From a virus (Duplodnaviria > Heunggongvirae > Uroviricota > Caudoviricetes): 12,409 bases of DNA. Location: the IMG/VR virus record IMGVR_UViG_3300028968_000090. One strand, 5' to 3'. Position 1 is the first letter of the stretch, and every line of letters begins with the position of its first letter. Below, piece by piece: positions 1 to 12,409 of the stretch. Under the pieces are notes generated by a model. The model saw only the letters and a program-made list of their open reading frames with translations, was not told the origin of the DNA and searched no databases. The translations under genes were made by a program, and so were the position numbers.

Positions 1-116
1 CTTCGTGTAACTATCGTGGCGGTAACGCCCACGAAGAAATACTATTGCGCTGTGCGCAGAAGAGTAATCACCTAACCAATCATACTGATTGCTTATGTGT
101 AACTCTCTACCTCTTA

Positions 117-271
117 ATTCCACTTCCTACATTTAATAACTCTCGTTATTCTCTGTAGTTGTGTAATTACTCGAAGAGAGCGGCTAAAGCTCAATTACAC
201 TCTGCTTTCCTCGTGTAATTTCACTAAGCCTCAATACAATTTCACTTCCTACATTCTGTAGTCGTGTAATT
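117..271 (+). repeat. Dispersed composite repeat pair plus clustered GTGTAATT-type motifs
   Basis: cacttcctacatt at 121..133 and 243..255; tctgtagt(t/c)gtgtaatt at 152..168 and 255..271. The first copy is split by an ~18-bp insert, the second is contiguous. GTGTAA(T/C)T recurs at 5..12, 97..104, 163..170, 213..220, 265..272 and inverted (caattacac) at 192..200. Confidence 0.6.
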
Positions 272-341
272 GTTTTCGGTGGAAAAGCCAGAGGCGACAC
301 CGAAAGAGAATTCTGATCTTATTAATCTTATCTATCTTAGT

Positions 342-393
342 TATCTTACTTACTTATCTTACTTACTTATCTTACTTACTTATCTTACTTACT
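342..393 (+). repeat. Tandem direct repeat, 4 perfect copies of the 13-bp unit tatcttacttact, with degenerate copies on both sides
   Basis: Perfect units at 342..354, 355..367, 368..380 and 381..393. Degenerate copies at about 320..341 and 394..406. Confidence 0.85.
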
Positions 394-930
394 TTATCTA
401 CTTTATTATTAATAATAGCTTTATAAGCTCTCTGTAGCTCTCTGACGCAAGAAACAGCATTCAGGAAGGGAATCACCTTAGAAAAGTGTTCTTTGCGTCA
501 TAATGTGTTTTATGAAGGATTCAGAGGTGTTTCATAACAGAGATGTATAGAGGATACTTTAATTAATTAAAAATAAGGGGTCTAAATGCTTCTCTAACAG
601 CATTAAGCAGGGTAGAGAATGGAAACGCATTGCCTACATATATAAGCTCACTACAGGGCTTTACAGAACGTTTTATAAAGTGACTCTCTATCTTATATCT
701 ACCATTACCTTTTCATATACCTAACAAATACAAAATAAGCCCCTTAAATAAGCCTCTGGCGAGCTAAACAACCTCTACATAAGAGAATGTATTGCTTTTA
801 TCAAAACTTCGTTAGAACGCGTTTTAGAGCGTTTTAGACAATAATGAAGAATAGCACCACACAGGAGAGCACGAATTGCTAAGAAAAAATGTAAGTGCAT
901 GAAAAAGATCAGATTTTTTATGAAAAGGTA

Positions 931-959
931 TTGACAAATGTTTCTTTATATGTAATAAT
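931..959 (+). promoter_or_regulatory. Sigma70-like promoter candidate (early operon)
   Basis: TTGACA at 931..936, 17-bp spacer, TGT extended -10 element, AATAAT at 954..959. Lies about 110 bp upstream of the first plus-strand gene. Confidence 0.35.
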
Positions 960-1070
960 AGGTATTAGAGGGACAGAAAAACATTCTTCTCTAAATAATC
1001 AAAATCAATGCACTTTGAAGCCGTCAGGCTTGCAAGGTGTTTTTTCTTTTAACTGAATAAGGAGTTTTTT

Positions 1071-1259
1071 ATGAAATGGTTTACCCCGGAGCACGTTGTC
1101 TCGGCATTTAAAAAAGGTGAGCTTACACGCCATCAAGTAGTAATGAATCGTAATATGGCAAGGAGTCGAGGTTATCCAGAGCGAGCAGCTTGCTTCAATG
1201 AAGCACTCAAGATTATTGATGAACTAAGAAAAAATGAAAAAGAATCTGAAACAGAGTAA
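1071..1259 (+). CDS. Hypothetical small protein (62 aa)
   Basis: ORF with SD-like taaggag 8-12 nt upstream of the ATG; first gene after the promoter candidate. No recognisable domain. Confidence 0.5.
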   Translation: MKWFTPEHVVSAFKKGELTRHQVVMNRNMARSRGYPERAACFNEALKIIDELRKNEKESETE

Positions 1260-1278
1260 AGAATAGAAGGAGAAAACT

Positions 1279-1446
1279 ATGAGCGAAACTAAGAAACCAA
1301 TTCCGCGCACTTACCTACACGTTGACCCTGAAATCTTCAAGGTTTTATTTGCTGAAGCCAAGAAAAGGCAAATTATGGTCAGTGATTTGATGTTAGAAAT
1401 CATTACTGAAGCAGCAGAGAACATCAAACAAAAAAAGGGTAAGTGA
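1279..1446 (+). CDS. Small ribbon-helix-helix-like DNA-binding protein (55 aa); not in the supplied ORF track (below its length cutoff)
   Basis: ATG at 1279 preceded by aaggag; TGA at 1444..1446. Translation MSETKKPIPRTYLHVDPEIFKVLFAEAKKRQIMVSDLMLEIITEAAENIKQKKGK has a beta-strand then two helices, the pattern typical of Arc/CopG/MetJ-type RHH proteins. Confidence 0.45.
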   Translation: MSETKKPIPRTYLHVDPEIFKVLFAEAKKRQIMVSDLMLEIITEAAENIKQKKGK

Positions 1447-1497
1447 TCCTCATTCACTTTAGTAGCGCATTAAGCGTGATTTATAAGGAGATTTTTA

Positions 1498-2190
1498 ATG
1501 ATTAATCAACTAACTTTTACAAAACACTATGACACGTTTGATAATGTATCAAAGATTTATTCTGATAAATTCCCTCAAGGAAAAGATTTAGATCTATTAC
1601 ATATTGTGCTTTATTTTCGATTCCTTAGTTATCAGGAAAACAACCTTAATTGTTATGAAAGTCACGAAACATTAGCTAAGATTTTTAAGTCTTCATCGTC
1701 AACAATTAAACGTAAGATAAACGATCTTAAAGAGATGGGATTATTAGAAACATCCCCACATCCTGATCCGTATATTTCATCTTTGATTTACAATGCTCTC
1801 CCTCTCACAGATGCACATATTACTCCCCCAGGAGAATCATCACTCTCTGATCTTTCTGAGGCAGAAGAAGCACAGGAACAACCTAAAGGCCATAAACAGC
1901 CTTCTTTTGATGTTCTTGATGATGATTGGGATACGCCTTTACCGTGGGAGACGGAAGAAACACCTGTTTCATCAAGTGATAAGGTAGCTAATGATAATGA
2001 GGAGGATGTGTTAGAGAATTTTGCCTCTCTTATCATCCAGAAGAAACACACCAGAACAGGAGGGGCATCATTTATAGAATTTGCAAATTCACTAGCTTAT
2101 AGACACGGGCTAAAACGACCAAATGGTATTGAGGCATATTTTTCTAAGAATTACCCAAATGTGTATGAAGACTTTGATATTCCATTTTAA
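1498..2190 (+). CDS. Winged-HTH-like DNA-binding protein with acidic C-terminal region (230 aa); possible replication initiator or transcription regulator
   Basis: Strong RBS (aaggag). Segment LSYQENNLNCYESHETLAKIFKSSSSTIKRKINDLKEMGLLE resembles HTH domains of phage/plasmid replication or regulator proteins. Central and C-terminal part is rich in D/E. Confidence 0.55.
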   Translation: MINQLTFTKHYDTFDNVSKIYSDKFPQGKDLDLLHIVLYFRFLSYQENNLNCYESHETLAKIFKSSSSTIKRKINDLKEMGLLETSPHPDPYISSLIYNALPLTDAHITPPGESSLSDLSEAEEAQEQPKGHKQPSFDVLDDDWDTPLPWETEETPVSSSDKVANDNEEDVLENFASLIIQKKHTRTGGASFIEFANSLAYRHGLKRPNGIEAYFSKNYPNVYEDFDIPF

Positions 2191-2201
2191 TAAGGAGGGT
2201 T

Positions 2202-2480
2202 ATGATTCAATATTTAGTAAAAAATCAAGTAGACAGAATTCAGTGTAATGACACAGGAAAACGCATCTATGAAACGCTTGCTTACCTCTATAAAGGAAAG
2301 CCAACACCGCTAAAATATAGCGATGTGTTACATCGAGCAGGGTGCTCTGAAGATGGTTTAAAATTCTGGCTGAAACAGCTATCAAACTTCGGTGTTATAG
2401 AAATTAAAGAATTATCTTTCTCTACATTCAATCTCAAAAGACTAGATAAAGAAATAGAATTCATCTATTCCACTCTCTAA
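2202..2480 (+). CDS. Small winged-HTH-like protein (92 aa)
   Basis: Strong RBS (aaggaggg) 11 nt after the upstream stop. Segment KYSDVLHRAGCSEDGLKFWLKQLSNFGVIEIKE is HTH-like. Confidence 0.5.
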   Translation: MIQYLVKNQVDRIQCNDTGKRIYETLAYLYKGKPTPLKYSDVLHRAGCSEDGLKFWLKQLSNFGVIEIKELSFSTFNLKRLDKEIEFIYSTL

Positions 2481-2609
2481 AATCTCTCTATGTAATTAAA
2501 ATATAAAAGGAAAACATTATTATGATAGTAGCTATGTATTGGTTATTGTTCTTTCTCACGTTAGAAGCATATTTCGGGGTGTTTTCCTTTAAAAGAAAAG
2601 GAAAAATAA

Positions 2610-3020
2610 ATGGCAAAAAGAAAAAACAACGTTGTTAAGAAAATCGGTGATTCAGCTTCTCTTCTAAGTAAACCTAAATCTATTCTAAGACGTAAAGACT
2701 TTAAAGAGCTAGTTACGCTCACCAAGCAAAATAGCGCCCCTGGCGAATGGAAAACAGAGATCATAGAACATTCTCCCTCTGTGCCTTGCGGAGATGAATT
2801 TAACGCCTTACAAGAAATCTTATCTTCAACACCTGGCGTGTTCTGGAAACCTAGAAAAAGAAAAGAGTATATTGTTGATAGCTCTGATCTACGCAAATAC
2901 CAGATTTTAGGATTTGAAGATTATAATCACTACGTTGGTTATCTCGCCACCAATGGCCTAAATAACTTAGTCCCAGAATTCCAAATTCTATGTAATGCTG
3001 ATCACTATGGAGACTTTTAA
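2610..3020 (+). CDS. Hypothetical protein with basic N-terminus (136 aa)
   Basis: ORF with A-rich RBS region; lysine/arginine-rich N-terminal 35 residues. No recognisable domain. Confidence 0.5.
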   Translation: MAKRKNNVVKKIGDSASLLSKPKSILRRKDFKELVTLTKQNSAPGEWKTEIIEHSPSVPCGDEFNALQEILSSTPGVFWKPRKRKEYIVDSSDLRKYQILGFEDYNHYVGYLATNGLNNLVPEFQILCNADHYGDF

Positions 3021-3021
3021 T

Positions 3022-3360
3022 ATGAACAAAAACACGTATGACACAATTTACTCACTAATTAATTATTATGAGGATGATTACCTCCTGCCTTTAAACCGCG
3101 CTGAACTTGAAGCATACAAAGAAAACACGCCAGCGGCACTAAATGAGGCGTTTAAACACTGGGATTTAGCTGTGAATGCCTTCTCGCACCTCTCTAAGCG
3201 TGTAGAGATGCTCTGTAAGCGTGAGAACGCATATCTAACAGCGGACCAGGTATGGGAGCTATCAAACTGGATAGAAGGTCTTGAATCGGACGTTCGCTAT
3301 GTAGGAGACGGCCTTGTTGAACTAGCTCAACGCTTAGGCGCTACTATCACAGAAGAATAA
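3022..3360 (+). CDS. Hypothetical helical protein (112 aa from ATG 3022; the ORF is open from 2995)
   Basis: ORF 2995..3360 in the track. The ATG at 3022 has a ggag SD 9 nt upstream and is preferred over 2995 and 3007, which lack an SD. The stop/start overlap with the upstream gene suggests coupling. Confidence 0.45.
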   Translation: MNKNTYDTIYSLINYYEDDYLLPLNRAELEAYKENTPAALNEAFKHWDLAVNAFSHLSKRVEMLCKRENAYLTADQVWELSNWIEGLESDVRYVGDGLVELAQRLGATITEE

Positions 3361-3389
3361 AAAAAGCAACAAAAAAGTTGTAAAATATC

Positions 3390-3418
3390 TTGACATTTCA
3401 TCTATTGTATGTTAATAT
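3390..3418 (+). promoter_or_regulatory. Sigma70-like promoter candidate (late/structural operon), same architecture as the promoter at 931
   Basis: TTGACA at 3390..3395, 17-bp spacer, TGT, TAATAT at 3413..3418. Sits directly after the stop of the 3022..3360 gene. Confidence 0.4.
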
Positions 3419-3611
3419 AATTATATAGGGTGATTATTTTTCCTTTATTGGTTCGATATTAAAAATTCTTCTTGTCGTTAAAGGGGAGTAAAATCTCCGC
3501 TCCCCGCTTCTCCTCCTCCTTAAGTGTCATTATTACCTCTTTTTTCCTTTGTTATGCATACATCTTGGAGTATGCATAACATAGGGTAATTACATAGGTA
3601 CAAGTTAATAA

Positions 3612-3641
3612 AAGGCGGCTCTAAATGCTGCCTTTTATTTT
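3612..3641 (+). terminator. Intrinsic-terminator-like hairpin inside the leader of the late operon
   Basis: aaggcggc (3612..3619), 7-nt loop, gctgcctt (3627..3634): 8 pairs including one G-U, followed by ttttatttt. Lies about 60 nt upstream of the ATG at 3704. Confidence 0.4.
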
Positions 3642-3703
3642 GCCCGTTATGCAACTTAAAAGTTGTATTTCTTACTTTAAACAAGGTAACAAGGTTTATA
3701 TAA

Positions 3704-3916
3704 ATGTTGTTCTTAAATGATAAAGAGCAAATCATCAAATATAAAGATGAAATGCTGAAAATTAATCCACAAATTACCGAAATGGTAGCTAAATACGCTG
3801 GGTGTTCTGTCGAGGAAGTAGAAAGATGTGTTGAAAAATATTTTTCTCCTTCTTCTCCGTCTACACCTTCCCTTAATGAATTAATCAAATTAAAAGCTAA
3901 GGAGATTACTAAATGA
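3704..3916 (+). CDS. Hypothetical small protein (70 aa)
   Basis: ORF whose stop overlaps the next start (ATGA at 3913..3916), indicating translational coupling. Confidence 0.5.
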   Translation: MLFLNDKEQIIKYKDEMLKINPQITEMVAKYAGCSVEEVERCVEKYFSPSSPSTPSLNELIKLKAKEITK

Positions 3917-4275
3917 TTATTGATTTAGACACTCTATTTCCAGTTCGAAAGACTTTCACAGATATTGTAAGTTATTGTACTGATCCGTTTGCCTCTGTAG
4001 AAAGCAAGGTTTTTGCTTCTCTTCCTGCTGATGTTGAGTGTGGCGACTTGATCACAAGCACGGGCGCTAAATATGAATCAGGAGATGATATCTATGTTGT
4101 TATGAGTGAATTTTTAACGGCTGGAGAAAACAAGCCTGTAGATGTGCTACGTAGCAATGCTGGCCTTGTCTGCATCAAAGCTGATGCCCTGAATGCTGTA
4201 AGTGAAGCAGCAAAAACAGCATTAATTAAAAAAGGCTTCCAGCTTGAAGGCTTTAATACGGTTTTCACTTCTTAA
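3913..4275 (+). CDS. Hypothetical protein (120 aa); by position possibly a head decoration/scaffold-type partner of the downstream capsid-like gene
   Basis: Strong RBS (aaggag). Sits immediately upstream of the 342-aa gene. No sequence-level recognition of a decoration protein; the functional guess is positional only. Confidence 0.45.
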   Translation: MIIDLDTLFPVRKTFTDIVSYCTDPFASVESKVFASLPADVECGDLITSTGAKYESGDDIYVVMSEFLTAGENKPVDVLRSNAGLVCIKADALNAVSEAAKTALIKKGFQLEGFNTVFTS

Positions 4276-4293
4276 TAAAAGGAATAATAATAA

Positions 4294-5322
4294 ATGATTC
4301 TAGGTAATGATTACGTTGATTTAGCTCCGCTTTTCCAGGCTCATAGCACTAGAAACTATCTGCTCTCTACTCTTGATTTTACGGATTCTGTAGGGGTTAC
4401 ATCTCATAAAGTAGCTGTTTCCCAGCTTGTCGAAAGCAACGAATCTCTGTTCAACAAAGAAACCTCTCGTTTCTCTTCTGAACACAACGTTACTAAGCGA
4501 GAACAAGGTAAAGAATGGCTGATTGAAATCCCTTACTTCCTGCGTGAAGATGTGATCCGTCCTTCTGATGTTCAAGGCAAACGTAAACCTGGCACTGATT
4601 TTCAGGAAACACTCACTGATATTTATGCTGACTATGTTGCTAAACACCACGTAGCGTATCAGCGCACTAAAGAAAGCGTATTGGCTGCATCTCTGTTTAG
4701 CGGTAAAACTTACACGCCTAAAACTGATGATGTGTTAATTGAGTGGGGCAAGCTGTTTAACGTATCAGCTATGAAAGCCACTGTGAACGCTTCCAGCACT
4801 GACACCACGAAGATTTTTAAAGAATTTGATCAGATTGCTACTGACATTATCGAGAAAGCACAAAGCCAGGCGGCTGCTGTAGAGCGTATTGTTGTTTTCT
4901 GTAAGCCGGAAGCCTTCTCTGCAATTCGATTCTCTGCTGGTATGGCAAACGCATTCCAGTATGTAAGCCCACTGGAAGAGGGAAATGTTGTGTACCAGCG
5001 TCGTGACCTGCTACCAGGAGTGACAGCGTTCACTATTCCAGGAACTAACATTGATGTTATTAAACTGGTAGATCCGCTACATCTTGCACATATGACCGCA
5101 GACGCTGTAGCTGTGCCTAAATTCGCTAAAGGCTCTAACGTATATCAGAACATCTACGGGGCTGCTTCCAGCACCTTTGAACTGATCAATGCCGATCCTA
5201 CTGAGGTTTATAGCTACAGCTATGAATCTTCTCGTGGTGATGCTGTTAACGTTGTTACAGAGAATAGCCAGATGGTTGTAAACCACGGTGTAGGCTTCTC
5301 CGTTCAAATCACTGTTAAATAA
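4294..5322 (+). CDS. Putative phage major capsid protein (342 aa), tentatively lambda gpE-like
   Basis: Good RBS; the only gene in the element closed by a strong intrinsic terminator. Size and a few motifs (LAASLFSGKTYT, ERIVVFCKPEAFSAIRF) resemble my recollection of lambda E-type capsid proteins. The function is unverified. Confidence 0.4.
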   Translation: MILGNDYVDLAPLFQAHSTRNYLLSTLDFTDSVGVTSHKVAVSQLVESNESLFNKETSRFSSEHNVTKREQGKEWLIEIPYFLREDVIRPSDVQGKRKPGTDFQETLTDIYADYVAKHHVAYQRTKESVLAASLFSGKTYTPKTDDVLIEWGKLFNVSAMKATVNASSTDTTKIFKEFDQIATDIIEKAQSQAAAVERIVVFCKPEAFSAIRFSAGMANAFQYVSPLEEGNVVYQRRDLLPGVTAFTIPGTNIDVIKLVDPLHLAHMTADAVAVPKFAKGSNVYQNIYGAASSTFELINADPTEVYSYSYESSRGDAVNVVTENSQMVVNHGVGFSVQITVK

Positions 5323-5340
5323 TATTTAACGTGTAATAGA

Positions 5341-5374
5341 GGCGTGGCGTGTATTCACGCTTCGCCTTTTTTTT
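5341..5374 (+). terminator. Rho-independent terminator after the 342-aa gene
   Basis: ggcgtggcgtg (5341..5351), loop tatt, cacgcttcgcc (5356..5366), then 8 T at 5367..5374. Confidence 0.75.
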
Positions 5375-5408
5375 ATTTATTTTTTAAATTTTGAGAGGTG
5401 ATTAAAAT

Positions 5409-5612
5409 ATGGAAGTGATTCTGAAATCAAAAAATGGTGTACACGTACATTTAGATGCTAATGATTCTAGAGGCTTGTTAAATCTGAAATATCTATGTTC
5501 TCTCTTAGATGTTCCATATGAAGGAGTAAAAGCCCGTATGTTCAGATTAAACGAGAGCATTGATCAGGCTCTACACCATTTCTTAAGCAAAGAAGGTGAT
5601 AAAAATGATTAA
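5409..5612 (+). CDS. Hypothetical small protein (67 aa)
   Basis: ORF with gagagg RBS; stop lies 14 nt before the next gene's start. Confidence 0.45.
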   Translation: MEVILKSKNGVHVHLDANDSRGLLNLKYLCSLLDVPYEGVKARMFRLNESIDQALHHFLSKEGDKND

Positions 5613-5626
5613 TAAGGGGATTTTAA

Positions 5627-7477
5627 ATGTTAGAAATTAACACTTCTAAAATTAAGAACACAGTAACATTTAGTGTAGATAAAGACAGCTTGAAAAAAGC
5701 GAAAGACTCTATTACAGGCTTAAAGGGATTCGTAGAAAATATCAAGCCAGCTAAGTTAAGGTTTGATAATGTCACTAAAGGCTATAAGAAAGCACAAAGT
5801 GAAGTAGATAAGATTGCTCAACAGAAAGCTAAAACAGAAAAACAAAATCAAAGAGCACAAGCTGCCGCAGCAAGAGCACAGGCAAGGCAACAGCAACAAA
5901 TAGCAGCACGTAAAGAGAAAGCAGAATTAAAACTGTTAGACGTTGGATCAAGCATTAGTGCAATGCACCGTCTCTCTGTAGCGGAACAATATAAAGCTAT
6001 TGCACAGGCTAGAGAGATAGCAAAACAATATGAGCAAGGCGCTATCTCGCTTGCACGTATGAATAGCCAAATGAAACGCCTACAACAGCAACAACGTAAG
6101 ATTAATGGCAACAGAAAAGCTCAATTAGCCCCCGTTAAGGGAGGATCAGGGAATTCCGCCACTATGGGCGCTCTGTTATTTGGAGGCGCTACAGCGGCGG
6201 CTGGCGTGATGGCTGTAAGCAAAGCCTCTGATTTTGTTACTAGCAGCTTCGCTAACGCAGACACCCAAGGGGAGCTAATTCAACGGGCCAAGCTGGGCGG
6301 TGTAGACGTTAACCAGATGTATAATATTACAGAATGGGCGTATAAAAACGGCGTTGACTCTATGATGGGTGATCAAGGGGCTAGGAAATACCTGGATCAG
6401 ATGAAAGATGTTAGGGAACGTGCCGCAAAATCCTACAGTGAAGCTGAATTGGTGAAAGATAAGCAAACCGGAAAATCTAAATGGAAAGGCGGTGATAACG
6501 CTATTAATGAACTTCTAAACATCGGAGTTATTAACAAAAGCGACCTTAAAAAATTTGCTGATAATCCAGCCGGATTAATTTCTAAGGCTGTTAATGGAAT
6601 GATGAAAAAAGGGTTTTCAGACTCCCAAATTGGACAACGTTTAGAAGACCTGGGCGATGATTTGATGCTTACATCAAAATATTGGCAACGTTCCGTTAAA
6701 GATGTACAAGAAAGTATTAACCAGCAAAAAGCCTCTGGAAAATGGCTAACAGAAACACAGCAAGACTCTATTGTTAAGTTCAGAGAACTAAACAGACAGC
6801 TTTCACAGCTTTCTGATGCAAGACAAGTAGCATTCGTAGACGGCTTTATGAAATCTCTTGATCCAAAAGTAACGGAAGAGTTTATGAAAAACCTTTCTAA
6901 TCTCACTCCGTATTTTACAAAACTGGGAGAAGCCACGGGAAGTCTCTTTGAAGCTATTATGAAGATTGTAAACTGGTTTAATCGTAATGATGATAAGACA
7001 GATGCTATTCAGAAAAATATGGGTGATGCACCGCCATTAAGCAATGATGGGATGAAGAAGAATTTAGATAATCTCACTCCTGATCAATATAAAGGCGCTG
7101 GCACTGCAACAACTACACCTGATAATAGTCATTCTCTCTTTAACACGATTAAGGGATGGCTTTTCGATGATAATGCTTCTTCTGTGTCAGATGTAAAAAT
7201 GTCAGTCAGCGAAGCACCGATAACCAATCTCAAACAGGGTGCTTTAAATAATCTTGCAATGACAACTCCGGCTTATAATTTATCTCCTGTATTCAATCTG
7301 AATCCTACATTTGAAGTGGTAACAGAGGTTCCTCTTACTATTAATTCTGACACATCAAGATTAAGCGATTATGTGGATTTTACAGCAAGAGCAAGTCGGG
7401 ATAGCTTCTTGAAATCATTAACATTAACCAGCTTATCAGGACAATCCAACGGCGGGNNNNNNNNNNTCCCGCCATAA
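5627..7477 (+). CDS. Large coiled-coil protein with a Gly/Ala-rich hydrophobic segment (about 616 aa); tape-measure-, scaffold- or ejection-protein-like. C-terminus uncertain because of the N gap
   Basis: RBS aagggg. Q/A/K/R-rich predicted coiled coil at about residues 60-165; hydrophobic GALLFGGATAAAGVMAVSKA segment. The ORF crosses the 10 N at 7457..7466, so the reading frame beyond the gap is not established. Confidence 0.55.
   Translation: MLEINTSKIKNTVTFSVDKDSLKKAKDSITGLKGFVENIKPAKLRFDNVTKGYKKAQSEVDKIAQQKAKTEKQNQRAQAAAARAQARQQQQIAARKEKAELKLLDVGSSISAMHRLSVAEQYKAIAQAREIAKQYEQGAISLARMNSQMKRLQQQQRKINGNRKAQLAPVKGGSGNSATMGALLFGGATAAAGVMAVSKASDFVTSSFANADTQGELIQRAKLGGVDVNQMYNITEWAYKNGVDSMMGDQGARKYLDQMKDVRERAAKSYSEAELVKDKQTGKSKWKGGDNAINELLNIGVINKSDLKKFADNPAGLISKAVNGMMKKGFSDSQIGQRLEDLGDDLMLTSKYWQRSVKDVQESINQQKASGKWLTETQQDSIVKFRELNRQLSQLSDARQVAFVDGFMKSLDPKVTEEFMKNLSNLTPYFTKLGEATGSLFEAIMKIVNWFNRNDDKTDAIQKNMGDAPPLSNDGMKKNLDNLTPDQYKGAGTATTTPDNSHSLFNTIKGWLFDDNASSVSDVKMSVSEAPITNLKQGALNNLAMTTPAYNLSPVFNLNPTFEVVTEVPLTINSDTSRLSDYVDFTARASRDSFLKSLTLTSLSGQSNGGXXXXPP
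7457..7466. other. Assembly gap or masked bases (10 N)
   Basis: Run of n characters flanked by an inverted repeat, ggcggg on the left and tcccgcc on the right. Confidence 0.95.
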
Positions 7478-7498
7478 CATTACAAGGAAATTATTATT

Positions 7499-8212
7499 AT
7501 GGCGACCGCCGGGATTTTAACCATACGTGCAGCAAATACTCCAGAACAACACGTTCAGGCTGTTTACAAAGCAGAACAAGATATAAACTCTACAAAAAAC
7601 GAAAATAGCAAAGCTAATAAAACAAAAGGAGAGAACGGATTTGCTATTGTTACCAGTGGCTTGGCATCTTCTGGCAATGACGTTTATGAAAATTATATGG
7701 CACTGGCCTTTGACAGTGTAGACGATGTGAACGTGAGACGTTCGGCAGATGTCACAAGCTACCCCGTAGAAAATGGTGCTACTGTGTCTGATCACGTTCA
7801 AATTAAAAACAATAAATTTTCTCTTAAAGGGCGTATCTCTGAAACACCGATTAAAAGCGATCCTGGCTTGTTAAAGAGTGCAGGGGTGAACGGGAACAGA
7901 AGATCATTAGCTATCGACTACCTGAATCAGATTATGGACAGTAGACAGCCTTTTCTTCTTGTTACAGAAAATAAAACTTTTGAGAACGTTGTTTTAACAG
8001 GCATCGAATACACAGAAGAGGCAAGCGAATCCCTGGTATTTGATCTTAGCTTTGAGCAAATAAGATTAGTTTCTTATGGCACTGTAAACACTGTAGCTAT
8101 CAAAACACAGCCATCTAAGAACATCGGGGCTAATATGAAAAAACGTGTTAACACTGAAAAACCAAGTAGTGAAGGTGAAGACACTATTACTCCTGCCTTT
8201 AAGCAGGAATAG
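7499..8212 (+). CDS. Hypothetical protein (237 aa), last plus-strand gene before the integrase
   Basis: ORF with aagga RBS. No recognisable domain. Confidence 0.5.
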   Translation: MATAGILTIRAANTPEQHVQAVYKAEQDINSTKNENSKANKTKGENGFAIVTSGLASSGNDVYENYMALAFDSVDDVNVRRSADVTSYPVENGATVSDHVQIKNNKFSLKGRISETPIKSDPGLLKSAGVNGNRRSLAIDYLNQIMDSRQPFLLVTENKTFENVVLTGIEYTEEASESLVFDLSFEQIRLVSYGTVNTVAIKTQPSKNIGANMKKRVNTEKPSSEGEDTITPAFKQE

Positions 8213-8252
8213 CCGTAAACGCCTCTAAAACGCTCTGTAACGATGTAATTAT

Positions 8253-8286
8253 AAAAGAGGCTACCAATCTATGTTGAAGCCTCTTT
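8253..8286 (-). terminator. Possible terminator hairpin between convergent genes (downstream of the integrase on the minus strand)
   Basis: 9-bp stem aaagaggct / agcctcttt with a 15-nt loop. On the minus strand the stem is followed by a U-rich tract (ttttataatt). The integrase stop is 8 nt away. Confidence 0.3.
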
Positions 8287-8293
8287 ATTGCGT

Positions 8294-9628
8294 CTATGGC
8301 GTTGTTTTACGCCTTAAATTTGATTTTTTATTGATTGATAAGCCTTTCTCTATTTCAGGGTAGCGTAGAAGCTCAATATAGTTTTTAAGCTCTACTGGAG
8401 AAGCTGCATTCTTGCTATATGTGCGGAATGTCTCTGTATTACCGCGTGTATGGCCCAGGAGAAGGGCGATCCTGTCTTCTGGAATTTGATTTCGATCAAG
8501 AAGCTGTGCTACTCCGTGTCTCAGAGAATGAAACACCTTCCTTTCTGTTCCCTTTTCCCCTAAAGCCTTTCGTTTAGCTCTTGTAAATCTCTGCGTGTGC
8601 CACGTGGAACGTTTACCATCAGCACGTTCTGTGATGCTGGCGTGATAGAACAAAAAGCCATTGTGAGGCTTTTCACGAAGAGATAACACCAACGGAGTGA
8701 TAAGGCTATGCACAGGCACAACACGTGCCGCAGCTTTCGTTTTTCCCTGTGTGATTTCAAAACACAGCACACCTTCGATCTCTTTCACATCGTCTATTGT
8801 GAGACTTGCTATCTCATTGATCCGCATACCTGTATAAGCACCGATAAGACACAAAGCCATCATTTCTTTGTTTTCTGCTGAATTACCGGAAAATACTTGC
8901 AACACTTGCAATAGCTCTTTGTTAGAAAATGCCTCATAGCTCTCTCTACTTTGTGCCACATCAAGCCTATGCCCTCGCCAGGGGGAGAGCGCCCTTTCTG
9001 GCGCATCGTGGTAACGTGATGAAGCTAACTCCCATAGCTGGGCCATTGGGCTGATATAATTTGCAATTGATTGTTGTGAAAGGGTTTTTTGCATGTGTTC
9101 AATCCAGCCTGTAACAGTGGTGCGGCTCACATCTTGCAATGCAATATCAGGCTTTTTACGGTAGGAGAGAAACATCTCTACCGCTTTTCTTGCCTTAGCT
9201 AAAGTGGCTGGCTTCTTCTTCGTGCTGTTAATTGTCAGGTAGATTTCAAGAATTTTAAGCAATGACGGACACGAAGACGCTGTATCTTGCATTCTGGTAG
9301 CTGTTTTGGCGTATTTAGCCTTACTGCGTAACAGTTCCAGCGTGTTCTCTATTGTGCTGTTTACAGGGGCGACACTCTCCCGTAGACAATGGTATTCATC
9401 TGCAATCTGATCACGCTTTCTACGTGCAACACGAAGATTACTTGTATGTAGACTCCTGACAAACGTCCTTTTTCCTTCAAAAAAGGGCTGCATATACACA
9501 GGCAACGTGATCCTCAAATAGTAGTTACCGTAAGAATCACAGATTATGTATTGGTTAGGCTTGTATCTCATAAAATCTCCGGCTAAAGTGTCGGAGCGTT
9601 TGTAATGTGAAAATTGATTGTAACGCAT
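8294..9628 (-). CDS. int: Tyrosine-type site-specific integrase (phage integrase family)
   Basis: C-terminal catalytic signature: TGMRINE (Arg box), HSLRH, LLGH and a downstream Tyr (RTYSK). Sits beside the tRNA-derived attachment core. The internal ATG at 9571 has a ggag SD and may be the true start (425 aa instead of 444 aa). Confidence 0.85.
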   Translation of the reverse strand: MRYNQFSHYKRSDTLAGDFMRYKPNQYIICDSYGNYYLRITLPVYMQPFFEGKRTFVRSLHTSNLRVARRKRDQIADEYHCLRESVAPVNSTIENTLELLRSKAKYAKTATRMQDTASSCPSLLKILEIYLTINSTKKKPATLAKARKAVEMFLSYRKKPDIALQDVSRTTVTGWIEHMQKTLSQQSIANYISPMAQLWELASSRYHDAPERALSPWRGHRLDVAQSRESYEAFSNKELLQVLQVFSGNSAENKEMMALCLIGAYTGMRINEIASLTIDDVKEIEGVLCFEITQGKTKAAARVVPVHSLITPLVLSLREKPHNGFLFYHASITERADGKRSTWHTQRFTRAKRKALGEKGTERKVFHSLRHGVAQLLDRNQIPEDRIALLLGHTRGNTETFRTYSKNAASPVELKNYIELLRYPEIEKGLSINKKSNLRRKTTP

Positions 9629-9671
9629 AGAAAATGATAATTTTTTCTATAAGATTCAATCAATTAGTAAT

Positions 9672-9733
9672 GGTCGTAGGTGATGGCATTAACACGAGAT
9701 TAATCGAGTGTTTTACTCCTATTATCGGCACCA
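9672..9733 (+). other. tRNA-Thr-derived attachment site: 3'-end fragment of a thrW-like tRNA (pseudo-tRNA, ptwF-like)
   Basis: actcctattatcggcacca at 9715..9733 matches the 3' T-arm/acceptor/CCA end of enterobacterial tRNA-Thr(CGU) as I recall it. ggtcgtaggt at 9672..9681 matches the preceding tRNA segment but is separated from the rest by a 33-nt non-tRNA insert. There is no intact tRNA. Confidence 0.55.
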
Positions 9734-9859
9734 TTAAAATCAAAGAGTTACCCCATATTTAAATACACCACGTTTCCTCCTGTGCCGCATTTGTGCCATT
9801 GTAACCTTGGCAATTCATCAAAATACTGTTCTGACATCAGGCAGTGCAGGTGCAGCTAT

Positions 9860-10270
9860 TTAAACCAATTGCTGCCGCCATTCTTTGACGTAGTCAATCA
9901 GGGCGCGGAGCTTTGGTGCAATATTGCGACGCTGTGGGAAATACAGATAGAAGCCCGGAAATTGTGGAAGAAAGTCATCAAGCAGCGATACAAGCTTACC
10001 GCTTTCAATATATGGCCTGAAAGTTTCCTGAGTGGCAATTGTTATTCCTCCGCCGGCAAGAGCCAGCCTCACCATCAGACGCAGATCATTAGTCGTAATC
10101 TGCGGTTCAATCGCAAGGTCGAAAGTTCTCCCGTTTTCTTCAAATGGCCAGCGATAAGGCGCAACCTCCGGGGACTGACGCCAGCCGATACACTTATGGG
10201 TATTTCCCCCGGAGGCGAGAAAGCGCTCTCCACGCCCGGCCGCAAGGATCAGGACGACGGGGGCAGGCAT
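9860..10270 (-). CDS. yagP: Truncated LysR-family regulator remnant: substrate-binding domain only, no N-terminal HTH (136 aa)
   Basis: C-terminal LysR-like sequence (FPQRRNIAPKLRALIDYVKEWRQ). Its start overlaps the stop of the upstream XdhC-family gene, so there is no room for the HTH domain. Matches the 136-aa yagP remnant downstream of paoD in E. coli, from memory. Confidence 0.55.
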   Translation of the reverse strand: MPAPVVLILAAGRGERFLASGGNTHKCIGWRQSPEVAPYRWPFEENGRTFDLAIEPQITTNDLRLMVRLALAGGGITIATQETFRPYIESGKLVSLLDDFLPQFPGFYLYFPQRRNIAPKLRALIDYVKEWRQQLV

Positions 10271-11205
10271 GAATCCTCCTCATGATGGAGACGTACAGAG
10301 GCGATTTCTGCCAGCACGGAGAGTGCCAGAGTATGCGCATCCCGGGCTTTGGGGAATATCCCGACGGGGGCCCGGATTTGCGCTGTCTCCTCCCTGGACC
10401 ATCCCAGCTCGTGGAGCTTTTGCAGACGTAACGTGTGGGTTCGATGGCTGCCCAATGCGCCGAGATAAAAGGGTTTTGCTTCTCGCGCGGCCTGCAATGC
10501 TGGCAGCTCCCGGTTGAGATCATGGCACAGCAAAATGACCGCCGTGTCGGTATCGATCTGAGCGCTGGCTGAGGCCGGAAAAAGATCGAAGATATGGCTG
10601 TCATAGCCTGTGGCTGCTGCAAGACTCGCGGTTGCCTGCGCCTCAAGAGAACGTCCGTAAATCATCAGCCTGACGCATGGCCTGAACCCCACCTCAAAGC
10701 CATTGAGATTCCAGCCCGTTCGGGTTTGCGTGGGCAGGCACACCAACGATTGTGCTTGCGGATCGTAGCGCAGCCCCGCCGGTTTTCTCTGTTCCAGACG
10801 GTTCAGCACGGCGAGCAGAGGCTGTGCCGAGCGTAGTTTATGGAGCGTCAGCGTGATCCCACCGCCGCAGGGCAGAACGATGTCAAACCACGGCGAACCT
10901 TCGCCATAGCGAATTTCGCGATCGCGGCCTGAGCCCATCATCTCCAGCGCTTCAAAAGCGGCAGCGGCCTCCACGCAGCCGCCAGAGACAAAACCGCAGT
11001 AACGACCATCTTCGCGAACCACCATCTGCGCCCCGAGCGGGCGCGCCGCGCCGCCGTGTATCTCCACCAGCGTCACCAGCACCGCTCCTTTACCGGACAT
11101 TAGCGCCTCTACGGCGAAGCGCAGAATGGTCCGGTGGTCATCGGTGAGAAACGCCTGCTCTGGCTTATGCCAGTGTTCGTCTTTATCAAAAAGCGGGTAT
11201 GACAT
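10249..11205 (-). CDS. paoD: XdhC/CoxI-family molybdenum cofactor insertion/maturation factor (318 aa)
   Basis: N-terminal XdhC signature (GAARPLGAQMVV...GFVSGGCVE) and a C-terminal Rossmann-like domain. Sits directly downstream of the Mo-binding aldehyde oxidoreductase subunit gene, as in paoABCD. Confidence 0.8.
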   Translation of the reverse strand: MSYPLFDKDEHWHKPEQAFLTDDHRTILRFAVEALMSGKGAVLVTLVEIHGGAARPLGAQMVVREDGRYCGFVSGGCVEAAAAFEALEMMGSGRDREIRYGEGSPWFDIVLPCGGGITLTLHKLRSAQPLLAVLNRLEQRKPAGLRYDPQAQSLVCLPTQTRTGWNLNGFEVGFRPCVRLMIYGRSLEAQATASLAAATGYDSHIFDLFPASASAQIDTDTAVILLCHDLNRELPALQAAREAKPFYLGALGSHRTHTLRLQKLHELGWSREETAQIRAPVGIFPKARDAHTLALSVLAEIASVRLHHEEDSCLPPSS

Positions 11206-11214
11206 TGTTTCTCC

Positions 11215-12409
11215 TTAAACCACATCCGGCAGCTTATCGAGCAGCTTATCCAGAGTGATGGGATAATCCCGTACCCGAATACCGGTGGCGTTATACACCG
11301 CGTTGGCGATAGCCGCGCTCACGCCGCACAGGCCCAGCTCACCGACACCTTTGGCCTTCATCGGGGAGGATATGGGGTCGGTATCATCCAGGAAAATCAC
11401 CTCCTGTTTTGGGATATCCGCATGGACCGGCACCTCATACCCCGCCATATCGTGATTAACGAAGTAGCCCAAACGGTCATCCACCGCCAGCTCCTCCATC
11501 AGTGCCGCGCCCATGCCCATAGTCATTGCGCCAATGACCTGGCTGCGCGCAGTTTTCGGATTCAGGATGCGTCCTGCAGCACACACAGCGAGCATACGCC
11601 GGACCCGAACTTCTCCCGTCGCGCTATGCACGCCGACCTCCACAAAATGCCCGGCAAAGGTCGACTGCTGGTACTCTTTGCTCAGTGTTCCGAATTCAAT
11701 GCTCTCTTCCGCTGTCAGTCTGCCGCCTGCGGTGGCTTCATGTAGCGTGGCGCTTCGGGTACCGTTGGTAATCTTGCCGTCGGCAAACTGCGACTGCTCA
11801 GGATCAAACCCGACTGCCGAGGCAATCATTTCGCGAAGCTTCATACAGGCGGCGTAAACGCCGGAGGTGGAGGTATTCGCGCCCCATTGTCCACCAGAAC
11901 CCGCAGAAACCGGGAAACTGGAATCGCCGAGGTGAACCGCAACCTGCTCCAGCGGTACGCCAAGCATTTCCGCTGCCGTCTGGGCCAGAATGGTGTAGCT
12001 GCCGGTGCCAATGTCGGTCATGTCCGTTTCTACGGTAACGGTGCCGTTTTGTTCGAGGTGAACCCGAGCACCCGATTTTTCCAGCAGATTATTGCGAAAG
12101 CCCGCCGCAACACCGTGGCCGACTAGCCACTCCCCGTCGCGCACCTGTCCGGGTGTGGCGTTGCGCTGCTTCCAGCCAAATTTATCCGCTCCGGTGCGCA
12201 AGCACTCGATAAGCTGACGGCGAGAGAAGCAGCGCGTCGGGTCGGCGGGGTCAACCTGAGTGTCATTCAGGATGCGAAACTCGACGGGATCGATGCCCGC
12301 TTTTTCCGCCAGTTCGTCGATCGCGATTTCGAGCGCCATCAGACCGGGGGCTTCGCCGGGCGCACGCATGGCGTTCCCTTCCGGCAAATCAAGCGTGGCG
12401 AGCCGCAGG
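11215..12409 (-). CDS. paoC: Aldehyde oxidoreductase molybdopterin-binding subunit, 3' (C-terminal) portion; the gene continues beyond the window
   Basis: Aldehyde oxidase/xanthine dehydrogenase molybdopterin-binding C-terminal domain motifs (GVGELGLCGVSAAIANAVYNATGIRVRDYPIT). The 5' end of the gene lies beyond position 12409 (the supplied ORF begins at an internal Met at 12387). Confidence 0.8.
   Translation of the reverse strand, partial: LRLATLDLPEGNAMRAPGEAPGLMALEIAIDELAEKAGIDPVEFRILNDTQVDPADPTRCFSRRQLIECLRTGADKFGWKQRNATPGQVRDGEWLVGHGVAAGFRNNLLEKSGARVHLEQNGTVTVETDMTDIGTGSYTILAQTAAEMLGVPLEQVAVHLGDSSFPVSAGSGGQWGANTSTSGVYAACMKLREMIASAVGFDPEQSQFADGKITNGTRSATLHEATAGGRLTAEESIEFGTLSKEYQQSTFAGHFVEVGVHSATGEVRVRRMLAVCAAGRILNPKTARSQVIGAMTMGMGAALMEELAVDDRLGYFVNHDMAGYEVPVHADIPKQEVIFLDDTDPISSPMKAKGVGELGLCGVSAAIANAVYNATGIRVRDYPITLDKLLDKLPDVV

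What the first reader, a model, noticed from the sequence alone, without database searches (positions are those of the whole stretch)
3390..3703. Late promoter followed by a ~250-nt structured leader ending in an intrinsic terminator, upstream of the capsid-like operon
A near-consensus promoter (TTGACA-17-TGT-TAATAT) is followed by about 285 nt with no ORF. The leader contains a GGGGAG/CTCCCC hairpin (3484..3507), a CU-rich tract (cttctcctcctcc), a 10-bp-arm inverted repeat ttatgcatac-N8-gtatgcataa (3552..3579) and a terminator-like stem-loop with a U-tail (3612..3641) about 60 nt before the first late gene. The layout resembles lambda pR'-6S RNA-tR', where late genes are expressed only after antitermination, and P4-type RNA-mediated immunity. 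It suggests either a small regulatory RNA or antitermination control of the structural operon, possibly responding to a helper phage factor.
Basis: partly seen in the sequence, partly recalled or inferred. Interest (0 to 1): 0.65.

Follow-up and report, generated by a model that had tools for sequence, protein, structure and literature searches.

The report
Gated leader before satellite capsid operon
A strong bacterial promoter, a tightly conserved ~215-base folded non-coding RNA and a stop signal sit just before the capsid genes of a small phage-satellite-like island in E. coli. The same layout recurs in related islands of eight other enterobacterial lineages, so it most likely acts as the on/off gate for the island's structural genes.

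Summary
TTGACA(3390-3395)-17-TGn-TAATAT(3413-3418) is followed by about 285 nt with no ORF. This stretch holds three strong hairpins, the last an intrinsic terminator (3607-3641) 62 nt before the first late ORF (ATG 3704).

The window is an E. coli chromosomal island of about 9.7 kb next to paoD/paoC. It carries an integrase, a Rep-like gene, a capsid, a tape-measure-like gene and a Dit-like gene.

Among 40 distinct copies the leader varies about three times less than the flanking genes. Changes avoid the stems, and all wobble pairs work only on the + strand.

Related islands in Enterobacter, Citrobacter, Cronobacter, Klebsiella, Serratia and Sodalis keep an ORF-free gap of 343-1007 nt. Each gap opens with a near-consensus promoter and closes with a terminator 31-136 nt before the late ORFs.

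New here: two copies of the dyad GCAAC-N2-AAAA-GTTGTA bracket the unit (3366-3382 and 3651-3667). The dyad is conserved family-wide as YAAC-N6-GTTR and is probably an operator.

Best reading is a lambda pR'/tR'-like gate under operator control, in which late genes need read-through. No Q/N-type protein and no P4/P1-type antisense pairing was found. Nothing has been shown experimentally. I rate it a new variant of a known kind, of moderate interest.

The parts
3366..3382 (.). Dyad O1, GCAAC-AAAAAA-GTTGTA, 8 nt upstream of the -35 (centre about -51 from the predicted start). Operator-like.
   Evidence: two exact copies of GCAACNNAAAAGTTGTA in the window, 0.04 expected, 0 of 200 shuffles with two; 38 of 40 variants identical. 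YAAC-N6-GTTR lies at the promoter in 7 lineages.
3390..3418 (+). Sigma-70 promoter: -35 TTGACA (3390-3395), 17-nt spacer, extended -10 TG (3410-3411), -10 TAATAT (3413-3418). Predicted start about 3425-3428, so the RNA begins A(U)AGGG.
   Evidence: The -35 is invariant in 40 variants; the -10 is TAATAT in 38 of 40 (TAGTAT in L023, TAACAT in L033). The equivalent promoter sits 13-30 nt after the upstream stop in 11 of 12 lineage representatives. The start site is inferred, not measured.
3428..3482 (+). 5' part of the leader: A/U-rich, weakly structured, almost invariant within the class. It opens with the GGG that 10 of the 12 lineage representatives place 7-10 nt after the -10 (L055 lacks it).
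3483..3505 (+). Hairpin H1: GGGGAGU / GCUCCCC, 7 bp, 9-nt loop.
   Evidence: -12.2 kcal/mol; 7 of 7 pairs invariant in 40 sequences.
3506..3545 (+). C/U-rich, G-poor linker. Contains cttctcctcctcc (3507-3519) and CCUCCUUA (3515-3522), which equals the 3' end of 16S rRNA. Composition is rut-like. Length is polymorphic.
   Evidence: C/G peaks at 2.78 in 3495-3572, against an island 95th percentile of 2.09. CTC copy number and a 9-10-nt indel vary.
3546..3585 (+). Hairpin H2: 16-nt arms with one internal mismatch, 8-nt loop.
   Evidence: I22; -21.3 kcal/mol. U-A in 20 and U.G in 20 sequences at 3559/3572, C-G to U.G once, one break.
3607..3641 (+). Hairpin H3, an intrinsic terminator: GC core 3614-3619 / 3627-3632, A-tract 3607-3613, U-tract 3633-3641.
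   Evidence: all 13 pairs invariant. A terminator-like hairpin lies 31-136 nt before the late ATG in the other lineages. Function is inferred.
3651..3667 (.). Dyad O2, GCAAC-TTAAAA-GTTGTA (hairpin H4 spans 3649-3668). It lies 10 nt after the U-tract and 37 nt before the ATG.
   Evidence: A second YAAC-N6-GTTR copy lies 35-59 nt before the late ATG in L081, Enterobacter, Citrobacter and Cronobacter.
3668..3703 (+). 5' UTR of the first late gene, with SD-like AAGG at 3691-3694. This is the most conserved stretch of the region.
   Evidence: diversity 0.0065 for 3642-3703.
3704..3916 (+). First late ORF (70 aa), followed by a 120-aa ORF (3913-4275) and the major capsid gene (4294-5322).
   Evidence: Variable sites fall mostly at third codon positions (13/7/3).
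5339..5372 (+). Second intrinsic terminator, directly after the capsid gene and before the tape-measure-like and Dit-like genes.
   Evidence: Equivalent terminators occur in the class B and class C islands.
2202..2480 (+). 92-aa winged-helix-like ORF of the early operon. Candidate binder of the dyads; this is speculative.
   Evidence: pLDDT 66, H-H-H-strand-strand; all best PDB matches are winged-helix DNA-binding regulators, but E >= 0.0036; conserved in position across lineages.

Best explanation
This is the regulatory gate between the early (replication) module and the late (capsid and tail-like) module of a phage-satellite-like integrative island of about 10 kb.

A near-consensus sigma-70 promoter with an extended -10 fires into a leader of about 215 nt. 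The leader is untranslated, C-rich and strongly folded, and it ends at a Rho-independent terminator 62 nt before the first late gene. RNA polymerase arriving from the upstream early operon meets the same terminator.

The default product is therefore a short non-coding RNA. The capsid operon is made only when polymerase reads through H3, and then through the second terminator behind the capsid gene. That is antitermination or regulated attenuation, as at lambda pR'-6S-tR'.

The promoter is probably not free-running. Two copies of one dyad (O1 at about -51, O2 at about +234) bracket the unit. They are most simply read as operators for a dimeric DNA-binding protein, able to loop and shut the promoter in the integrated state.

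Shown: the sequence elements, their conservation, the strand asymmetry, the family-wide architecture, and the lack of an alternative promoter.

Inferred: transcription start and stop, terminator efficiency, the need for and nature of the read-through factor, operator function, and any link to a helper phage.
For: The elements are present and fold far better than shuffles.

Leader diversity is 0.016, against 0.058 and 0.041 in the flanking genes.

Among 40 distinct copies, 4 of 86 stem columns carry substitutions against 34 of 268 other columns (p = 0.04). Counting indels too, 8 of 86 stem columns vary against 55 of 204 transcribed non-stem columns (p = 0.0006).

99.9% of cells are paired. The three one-sided changes all go through G.U, and every wobble pair is valid only on the + strand. 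The + strand fold is 10 kcal/mol more stable than the minus strand fold.

Twelve lineage representatives were compared: three E. coli classes with subtypes, Enterobacter, Citrobacter, Cronobacter, Klebsiella, Serratia, Sodalis and one metagenomic lineage. Capsid identity falls to 37%. All keep an ORF-free gap of 343-1007 nt. Each gap opens with a TTGACA-like -35, a 17-18-nt spacer and a TAnnAT -10, preceded by TG in 8 of 12. Each ends in a terminator-like hairpin 31-136 nt before the late ATG.

No other promoter with at least 9 of 12 matches lies downstream of the last terminator, except in Serratia.

A strong terminator follows the capsid gene in the three E. coli classes examined.

The dyad pair is far above chance and conserved, with a constant N6 spacer of variable sequence. 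In several lineages it lies inside the promoter spacer and overlaps the -10.
Against: There are no transcript data of any kind.

No Q-, N-, RfaH- or Psu-like protein was recognised in the island.

There is no obvious alternative antiterminator pairing for the 5' arm of H3 (direct reading).

There are no double compensatory changes, because the class is too conserved.

The leader body is unrelated in sequence between classes. A generic attenuator would not need the very high within-class conservation seen here, so the RNA may do more than terminate.

A terminator just after a promoter is also what a plain sRNA gene looks like.
Confidence: 0.45

Rival explanations
1. It is a stand-alone small-RNA gene. 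The promoter and terminator delimit a regulatory RNA of about 215 nt whose real job is in trans: on host, helper-phage or island mRNAs, or by titrating a protein. Its position before the late genes is secondary, comparable to the abundant IIR non-coding RNA between gene clusters of the Vibrio PLE satellites.
For: It has its own strong promoter and an intrinsic terminator with a long U tail.

The whole RNA body is conserved within the class three times better than the neighbouring genes.

It has C/U-rich single-stranded tracts, including CCUCCUUA, which is identical to the 3' end of 16S rRNA (own knowledge). That tract is complementary to the UAAGGAG Shine-Dalgarno sequences repeated in the island (D3).

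PLE satellites make their most abundant transcript from an inter-cluster non-coding region (PMC7567579).
Against: No target stood out. Duplex energies against island mRNAs are within the range of shuffles. The one 17-nt complementarity (154-170) does not covary and is deleted in 16 of 40 variants. Leader-to-RBS pairing is not cognate-specific.

The C/U tract, the best seed candidate, is the most length-variable part.

Between lineages the promoter and terminator are kept but the RNA body is not. That fits a cis role better. There is no Rfam family match.
Confidence: 0.2
2. It is an operator-controlled late promoter with a long 5' UTR and no antitermination. The dyads do all the regulation. H1-H3 stabilise or process the mRNA, or merely damp expression, and H3 mainly insulates the late genes from early-operon read-through.
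For: The dyad pair is conserved across lineages. In several it overlaps the -10, which is the classic repressor position.

A conserved winged-helix-like ORF sits in the early operon.

No antiterminator gene was found.
Against: H3 has the full anatomy of an efficient intrinsic terminator: a GC core, a 7-nt loop and 8 U in 9 nt. It lies downstream of the promoter it would have to serve, and this placement is kept in all lineages. Some lineages carry two or three terminator-like hairpins in the leader. That would be wasteful for a plain UTR.
Confidence: 0.2
3. It works at the DNA level only. The palindromes are protein-binding or packaging (pac), replication or recombination sites, and the RNA folding is incidental.
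For: H2 is a 40-bp near-palindrome. O1 and O2 behave like DNA operators, with a fixed N6 spacer and variable spacer sequence. Satellites need a pac site, and none has been identified here.
Against: All five wobble positions in H1-H4 and all three one-sided substitutions keep pairing only in + strand RNA.

H3 has a U-tract, which has no meaning in DNA.

The likely origin, a set of 13-nt iterons, lies elsewhere at 318-404 (D1).

An invertible switch is excluded: the flanking repeats are direct, and all 48 full-length copies recovered are colinear.
Confidence: 0.07

Closest known systems
Lambda late control region pR' - 6S RNA - tR' (Q antitermination); own knowledge of the system
   Same: A strong sigma-70 promoter sits at the junction of the early and late genes. 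A leader of about 200 nt (194 nt in lambda, about 215 nt here) ends in an intrinsic terminator just before the structural genes. Further terminators lie inside the late operon. The gene array is colinear, so early transcription runs into the same terminator.
   Different: No Q-family gene lies upstream. The -10-like element GATTAT sits at about +9 to +14 and the conserved GGG at +2 to +6, which does not reproduce the lambda arrangement. The promoter is bracketed by operator-like dyads. The leader is far more structured and more conserved than a simple spacer would be.
P4 CI RNA and P1/P7 c4 antisense RNA immunity (Rfam C4)
   Same: It is a satellite or phage element with no obvious protein repressor next to the promoter. 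A non-coding RNA is made from the leader of the operon it could control.
   Different: There is no match to the Rfam model. There are no repeated complementary target boxes near the downstream RBS. The RNA would be 215 nt rather than 69-77 nt, and there is no sign of processing sites.
PLE (Vibrio cholerae satellite) inter-inverted-repeat non-coding transcript (PMC7567579)
   Same: It is a non-coding unit between two co-oriented gene clusters of a satellite of a lytic phage, flanked by repeats.
   Different: The PLE RNA has antisense homology to leaders of PLE ORFs, and none was found here. There is no sequence relation. Expression here is unmeasured.
HK022 put RNA (cis-acting, protein-independent antiterminator); own knowledge
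   Same: A structured RNA is encoded between a strong promoter and the terminators that must be passed. No antiterminator protein is identifiable.
   Different: put is two adjacent stem-loops of about 70 nt. Here H1 and H2 are 40 nt apart and differ between classes. This cannot be tested with these tools.
Two-operator looping control (gal OE/OI, lac O1/O2); own knowledge
   Same: Two identical dyads lie on either side of a promoter: 285 bp apart here and 594-739 bp apart in sister lineages.
   Different: The binding protein is unknown. O1 lies upstream of the -35 in this class but inside the spacer in others. The loop would enclose a terminator as well.

Membership tests
Lambdoid Q-dependent late control unit (pR'/qut/tR') | Sigma-70 promoter immediately upstream of the late operon, followed by an intrinsic terminator before the first late gene | tested here: met
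   (sequence level only).
Lambdoid Q-dependent late control unit (pR'/qut/tR') | Q-family antiterminator gene encoded upstream | tested here: not met
   No Pfam or PHROG hit to any antiterminator at E <= 5 for the small ORFs. PDB profile and fold searches give only generic helical bundles for the ORF upstream of the promoter. A helper-encoded Q cannot be excluded.
Lambdoid Q-dependent late control unit (pR'/qut/tR') | Q-binding element at the promoter plus a -10-like pause-inducing element in the initially transcribed region | tested here: inconclusive
   GATTAT lies at about +9 to +14 and a conserved GGG at about +2 to +6. In sister lineages the dyad lies between -35 and -10. The spacing differs from lambda, and there are no pause data.
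P4 CI / P1 c4 antisense immunity RNA (Rfam C4) | Match to the covariance model | tested here: not met
   No hit with E <= 1 in the leader. None in 10 related loci.
P4 CI / P1 c4 antisense immunity RNA (Rfam C4) | Complementary target boxes in the same transcript, overlapping the RBS of the downstream gene | tested here: not met
   Mean cognate leader-RBS duplex energy is -18.6 against -17.9 +/- 3.5 for non-cognate pairs. For this class it is -12.0, and 74% of shuffles do as well.
Trans-acting base-pairing sRNA | Own promoter and Rho-independent terminator | tested here: met
Trans-acting base-pairing sRNA | Conserved single-stranded seed with identifiable conserved targets | tested here: inconclusive
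   No target above background within the island. Host and helper genomes were not scanned. The C/U tract is length-polymorphic.
Invertible promoter switch (fimS / hin type) | Inverted flanking repeats and both orientations present in populations | tested here: not met
   The flanking 17-mers are direct repeats. All 48 full-length copies recovered from genomes, metagenomes and viral contigs are colinear.
Operator pair with DNA looping | Two copies of the same dyad flanking the promoter, conserved in relatives | tested here: met
Operator pair with DNA looping | A cognate dimeric DNA-binding protein that binds both sites | not testable with these tools
   There is only a candidate: the 92-aa winged-helix-like ORF 2202-2480 (weak scores).
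HK022 put-type cis antiterminator RNA | Nascent two-stem RNA that makes the transcribing polymerase terminator-resistant | not testable with these tools
   No Rfam family matched the leader or the related loci. Testing this needs in vitro transcription.

The most novel reading that the evidence does not exclude
The leader RNA is itself the regulator of a so far undescribed family of capsid-encoding satellites. It would be either a put-like cis-acting RNA that makes polymerase started at this promoter (but not early read-through polymerase) resistant to H3 and to the post-capsid terminator. Or it would be a class-specific immunity or helper-sensing RNA. The strict within-class conservation and complete between-class divergence would then mark specificity groups, as with nut/N or the P4 CI types.
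Probability: 0.15. Interest if true: 0.8.

Novelty: new variant of a known kind. Interest (0 to 1): 0.5.

Why it matters
The island type is common. The leader occurs in 307 and the capsid operon in 397 of 5,426 complete E. coli genomes, and relatives occur in at least six other enterobacterial genera. I found no description of it in the searchable literature.

It carries its own capsid, tape-measure-like and tail-tube-initiator-like genes, but has no recognisable repressor or late activator. The region studied here is the only candidate switch between its replication module and its structural module. It therefore gives a concrete, small (343 bp) handle for asking how such an element stays silent and how it senses a helper.

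If read-through proves to be RNA-driven or helper-driven, it would add a new regulatory solution to satellite biology. If not, it is one more example of late-operon attenuation.

Tried and rejected
- Rfam, on the window at E <= 1, on three sister loci at E <= 1, and on seven other-genus loci at gathering score: nothing in the leader.
- BLAST of the class A and class C leaders against 50,697 phage records: no homologue.
- Sequence homology between the class A leader and the class B/C leaders: only chance 8-11-mers.
- P4- or c4-like antisense pairing: rejected.
- Complementarity of 3586-3602 to 154-170 (16 of 17 pairs): rejected, because the left site is unchanged whether the leader segment is deleted or mutated.
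- Leader peptide or hidden ORF, including the 31-aa frame starting in the H3 loop and the 122-aa minus-strand frame: rejected on indels, and on the absence of the 31-aa frame from the class B sequence checked.
- RfaH ops (GGCGGTAG) and lambda boxA: not present in this class, by reading. The CGCTCTTA in the class C terminator was judged coincidental.
- Invertible switch: rejected.
- boxB-like RNA reading of the dyads: judged less likely than DNA operators. Loop sequences are not conserved, the N6 spacing is constant, and the 4-5-bp A/U-rich stems are weak. However, three wobble-type changes are compatible with RNA.
- Antiterminator search in small ORFs by Pfam, PHROGs, PDB sequence search and two single-sequence AlphaFold models with Foldseek: only a weak winged-helix signal for ORF 2202-2480 and a generic three-helix bundle for ORF 2995-3360.
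- Literature searches for the island family and for leader sequence strings: nothing found.
- RNAalifold on the B/C 5' domain gave only a weak consensus because the alignment is poor.

Full report
**Context.** The window is E. coli chromosome. Bases 9715-12409 (about 60% GC) are paoD/paoC and are 99-100% identical to many E. coli records. Bases 1-9715 (32-45% GC) are an integrative island. On the + strand it carries small ORFs, a Rep-initiator-like HTH protein (1498-2190) and three small ORFs. Then comes the 343-nt gap under study (3361-3703). After it come a 70-aa ORF, a 120-aa ORF, a major capsid protein of the E family (4294-5322), a 67-aa ORF, a tape-measure-like protein (5627-7477) and a Dit-like tail-tube-initiator-like protein (7499-8212). 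On the minus strand there is a tyrosine integrase (8294-9628). At least 80% of the island is found in 282 of 5,426 complete E. coli genomes, the gap itself in 307, and the capsid operon in 397. Bases 1267-1836 are 97-99.6% identical to genes of the 146-kb lytic phages inny and muut. Bases 7529-7607 are 91% identical to a tail-tube-initiator gene of a 145-kb phage. So the island exchanges DNA with large lytic phages and looks like a satellite. I did not find the family described in the searchable literature.

**The observation.** The promoter is TTGACA 3390-3395, a 17-nt spacer, TG 3410-3411 and TAATAT 3413-3418. H1 is at 3483-3489 / 3499-3505. The C/U tract is at 3507-3519. The exact 10-nt inverted repeat at 3552-3579 extends to 16-nt arms at 3546-3561 / 3570-3585. 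The terminator has GC core 3614-3632, flanking A- and U-tracts and a tail ending at 3641, which is 62 nt before ATG 3704. Hairpin energies are -12.2, -21.3 and -9.7 kcal/mol, the last rising to -17.4 when extended. The predicted RNA 3425-3645 folds at -64.7 kcal/mol (z = -6.1). The complementary strand gives -54.5 (z = -4.3). No ORF is credible. Only 20-35-aa chance frames and a minus-strand 122-aa TTG frame exist. The 1-, 3-, 9-10- and 17-nt indels among natural variants would disrupt them.

**Selection within the class.** I collected 48 full-length copies of this leader type (40 distinct) from complete genomes, metagenomes and viral contigs.

- Nucleotide diversity is 0.016 in the gap against 0.058 and 0.041 in the 400 nt of coding sequence on either side. 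In that coding sequence, changes fall mostly at third codon positions.
- The -35 hexamer is invariant. The -10 is TAATAT in 38 of 40 copies (TAGTAT in L023, TAACAT in L033). The H1 and H3 stems and the U-tract are invariant.
- Only 4 of 86 stem columns carry substitutions, against 34 of 268 other columns (p = 0.04). Counting indels too, 8 of 86 stem columns vary against 55 of 204 transcribed non-stem columns (p = 0.0006).
- There are no double compensatory changes, because the class is too uniform. The three one-sided changes are U-A/U.G (20 and 20 sequences), G.U/A-U (36 and 4) and C-G/U.G (39 and 1). These, and the two fixed wobble pairs in H1 and H3, are valid pairs only in + strand RNA.
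- This argues for an RNA-level constraint on the + strand, though the number of independent events is small.

**The family view.** This is the most informative result.

- Two other E. coli island classes (capsid 70-77% identical) and relatives in Enterobacter, Citrobacter, Cronobacter, Klebsiella, Serratia, Sodalis and a metagenomic lineage (capsid down to 37% identity) keep the same gene order. They also keep an ORF-free gap of 450-1007 nt at the same place.
- The leader bodies are unrelated in sequence between classes.
- In all 12 lineage representatives the gap begins with a near-consensus promoter: a TTGACA-like -35, a 17-18-nt spacer, and a TAnnAT -10 preceded by TG in 8 of 12. It starts 13-30 nt after the upstream stop codon, or 93 nt in Klebsiella. 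A GGG lies 7-10 nt after the -10 in 10 of the 12 (L055 lacks it).
- Each gap ends in a GC-hairpin-plus-T-tract terminator 31-136 nt before the first late ATG.
- Several leaders contain additional internal terminator-like hairpins.
- Except for one candidate in Serratia, no promoter with at least 9 of 12 matches lies downstream of the last terminator.
- The three E. coli classes examined also have a strong terminator right after the capsid gene.
- The window's version is the shortest member of this series.
- The pattern is a conserved promoter and terminator with a divergent body, yet strict within-class conservation. That is what one expects of a cis-acting gate whose body interacts with a class-specific partner.

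The 17-mer GCAAC-NN-AAAA-GTTGTA occurs twice in the window and nowhere else. One copy is at 3366-3382, 8 nt upstream of the -35. The other is at 3651-3667, 10 nt after the U-tract. The chance expectation is 0.04, and 0 of 200 shuffles give two copies. Thirty-eight of 40 and 36 of 40 variants keep the two copies exactly. The degenerate dyad YAAC-N6-GTTR occurs twice per gap in the metagenomic lineage L081, Enterobacter, Citrobacter and Cronobacter. One copy is always at the promoter, either upstream of the -35 or inside the spacer overlapping the -10. The other is 35-59 nt before the late ATG. About 0.8 copies are expected in a whole 10-kb island. Class B has the dyad in its promoter spacer. 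Class C has one-mismatch copies at both places (read). The fixed 6-nt spacing, the variable spacer sequence and the position over the promoter core point to an operator for a dimeric DNA-binding protein. A boxB-like RNA hairpin is less likely. An invertible switch is excluded, because the repeats are direct and all copies are colinear. A conserved 92-aa ORF of the early operon (2202-2480) gives a moderate-confidence winged-helix model whose PDB matches are all DNA-binding regulators. The scores are weak, so it is only a candidate.

**Mechanism.** I commit to the gate model. The strong promoter, and any polymerase coming from the early operon, transcribes the C-rich structured leader and stops at H3. 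No + strand terminator was found by the scanner between 1903 and 5339; H3, at 3607-3641, escaped that scan. So the default product is an RNA of about 215 nt. Late genes need read-through of H3 and then of the post-capsid terminator. The C/G ratio peaks at 2.78 over 3495-3572, above the island's 95th percentile, so Rho could add to the block. The dyads probably repress the promoter in the integrated state. What relieves termination is unknown. No Q, N, RfaH-type or Psu-like protein was detectable, and I see no alternative antiterminator helix. The remaining possibilities are a helper-encoded factor, an unrecognised island protein, or the leader RNA itself acting as put does in HK022. The antisense models of P4 and P1 were tested and failed.

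**Rivals.**
- A stand-alone sRNA gene, with the PLE IIR transcript as precedent (PMC7567579).
- An operator-controlled promoter with a long stabilising 5' UTR.
- A purely DNA-level element.

The first two cannot be excluded without transcript data. The third is disfavoured by the strand asymmetry and the U-tract.

**Verdict.** It is a new variant of a known kind of control, embedded in an apparently undescribed and widespread island family. Interest is moderate (0.5), and higher if the RNA proves to be the active regulator.

Noticed in passing
window 3366-3382 and 3651-3667: Two exact copies of the dyad GCAAC-NN-AAAA-GTTGTA bracket the promoter-leader-terminator unit. The family-wide form YAAC-N6-GTTR sits at the promoter and again 35-59 nt before the late ATG in several genera. 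It is a probable operator pair.
   Followed up: yes
window 318-404: Five to six tandem 13-nt repeats (CTTATCTTACTTA) lie in the ORF-free left part of the island. They are likely iterons of the replication origin for the Rep-like protein 1498-2190.
   Followed up: no
window 795-836 and 8216-8257: A 42-nt inverted repeat (76% complementary, core CGTTTTAGAGCGTTTTAGA) flanks the whole + strand gene array. One arm is upstream of the early promoter (931-959). The other lies between the Dit-like gene and the integrase stop.
   Followed up: no
window 1267-1836 and 7529-7607: Bases 1267-1836 (small ORF 1279-1446 and the start of the Rep-like gene) are 97-99.6% identical to hypothetical genes of the 146-kb phages inny and muut. 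Bases 7529-7607 are 91% identical to a tail-tube-initiator gene of phage EC_OE_11. This indicates recent exchange with large lytic phages, which are possible helpers.
   Followed up: partly
window 5339-5372: A strong intrinsic terminator (GAGGCGTGGCGTG...CACGCTTCGCC plus T8) sits directly after the capsid gene and before the tape-measure-like and Dit-like genes. Equivalent terminators are present in the class B and class C islands.
   Followed up: partly
L003 4884-5758; L004 4714-5706 (sister E. coli islands): The equivalent gap is 875-993 nt and ORF-free. It starts with a promoter-to-first-terminator unit of about 240-270 nt. At the equivalent position of that unit, both classes appear (by eye; not tested with the pair-counting tool) to have a 13-bp helix of different sequence. 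The gap also holds a conserved central block (GTGATTCCT.AAA.TCTGA...TGCATCCACA...AGCG.TTAGCC). No Rfam match. This may be a larger structured RNA.
   Followed up: partly
window 3515-3522: CCUCCUUA in the single-stranded C/U tract is identical to the last 8 nt of E. coli 16S rRNA (own knowledge). It is complementary to the UAAGGAG Shine-Dalgarno motif repeated before five island ORFs (1058, 1484, 3006, 3898, 5613). It is present only in this leader class.
   Followed up: partly
whole island, window 1-9715; loci L073-L081: The island family (integrase, Rep-like HTH, small winged-helix-like ORF, E-family capsid, tape-measure-like protein, usually a Dit-like protein) occurs in Escherichia, Enterobacter, Citrobacter, Cronobacter, Klebsiella, Serratia and Sodalis. 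No portal, terminase or protease was recognised. Its capsid is only 22-26% identical to the nearest phage capsids, which are Pseudomonas myophages. I found no published description.
   Followed up: partly
L075 about 4860-4910 (Klebsiella relative): Upstream of the Klebsiella promoter, the YAAC-N6-GTTR dyad is replaced by two palindromes, AGGAATGTTCCT and AGGAATATTCCT. This suggests a different operator specificity.
   Followed up: no
window 9715-10270: This stretch, next to paoD and outside the island, is 99% identical to the last 556 bp of the phage phi458 record, annotated as 'tail assembly protein'. It is probably host or island-junction DNA in that record rather than a true tail gene.
   Followed up: no
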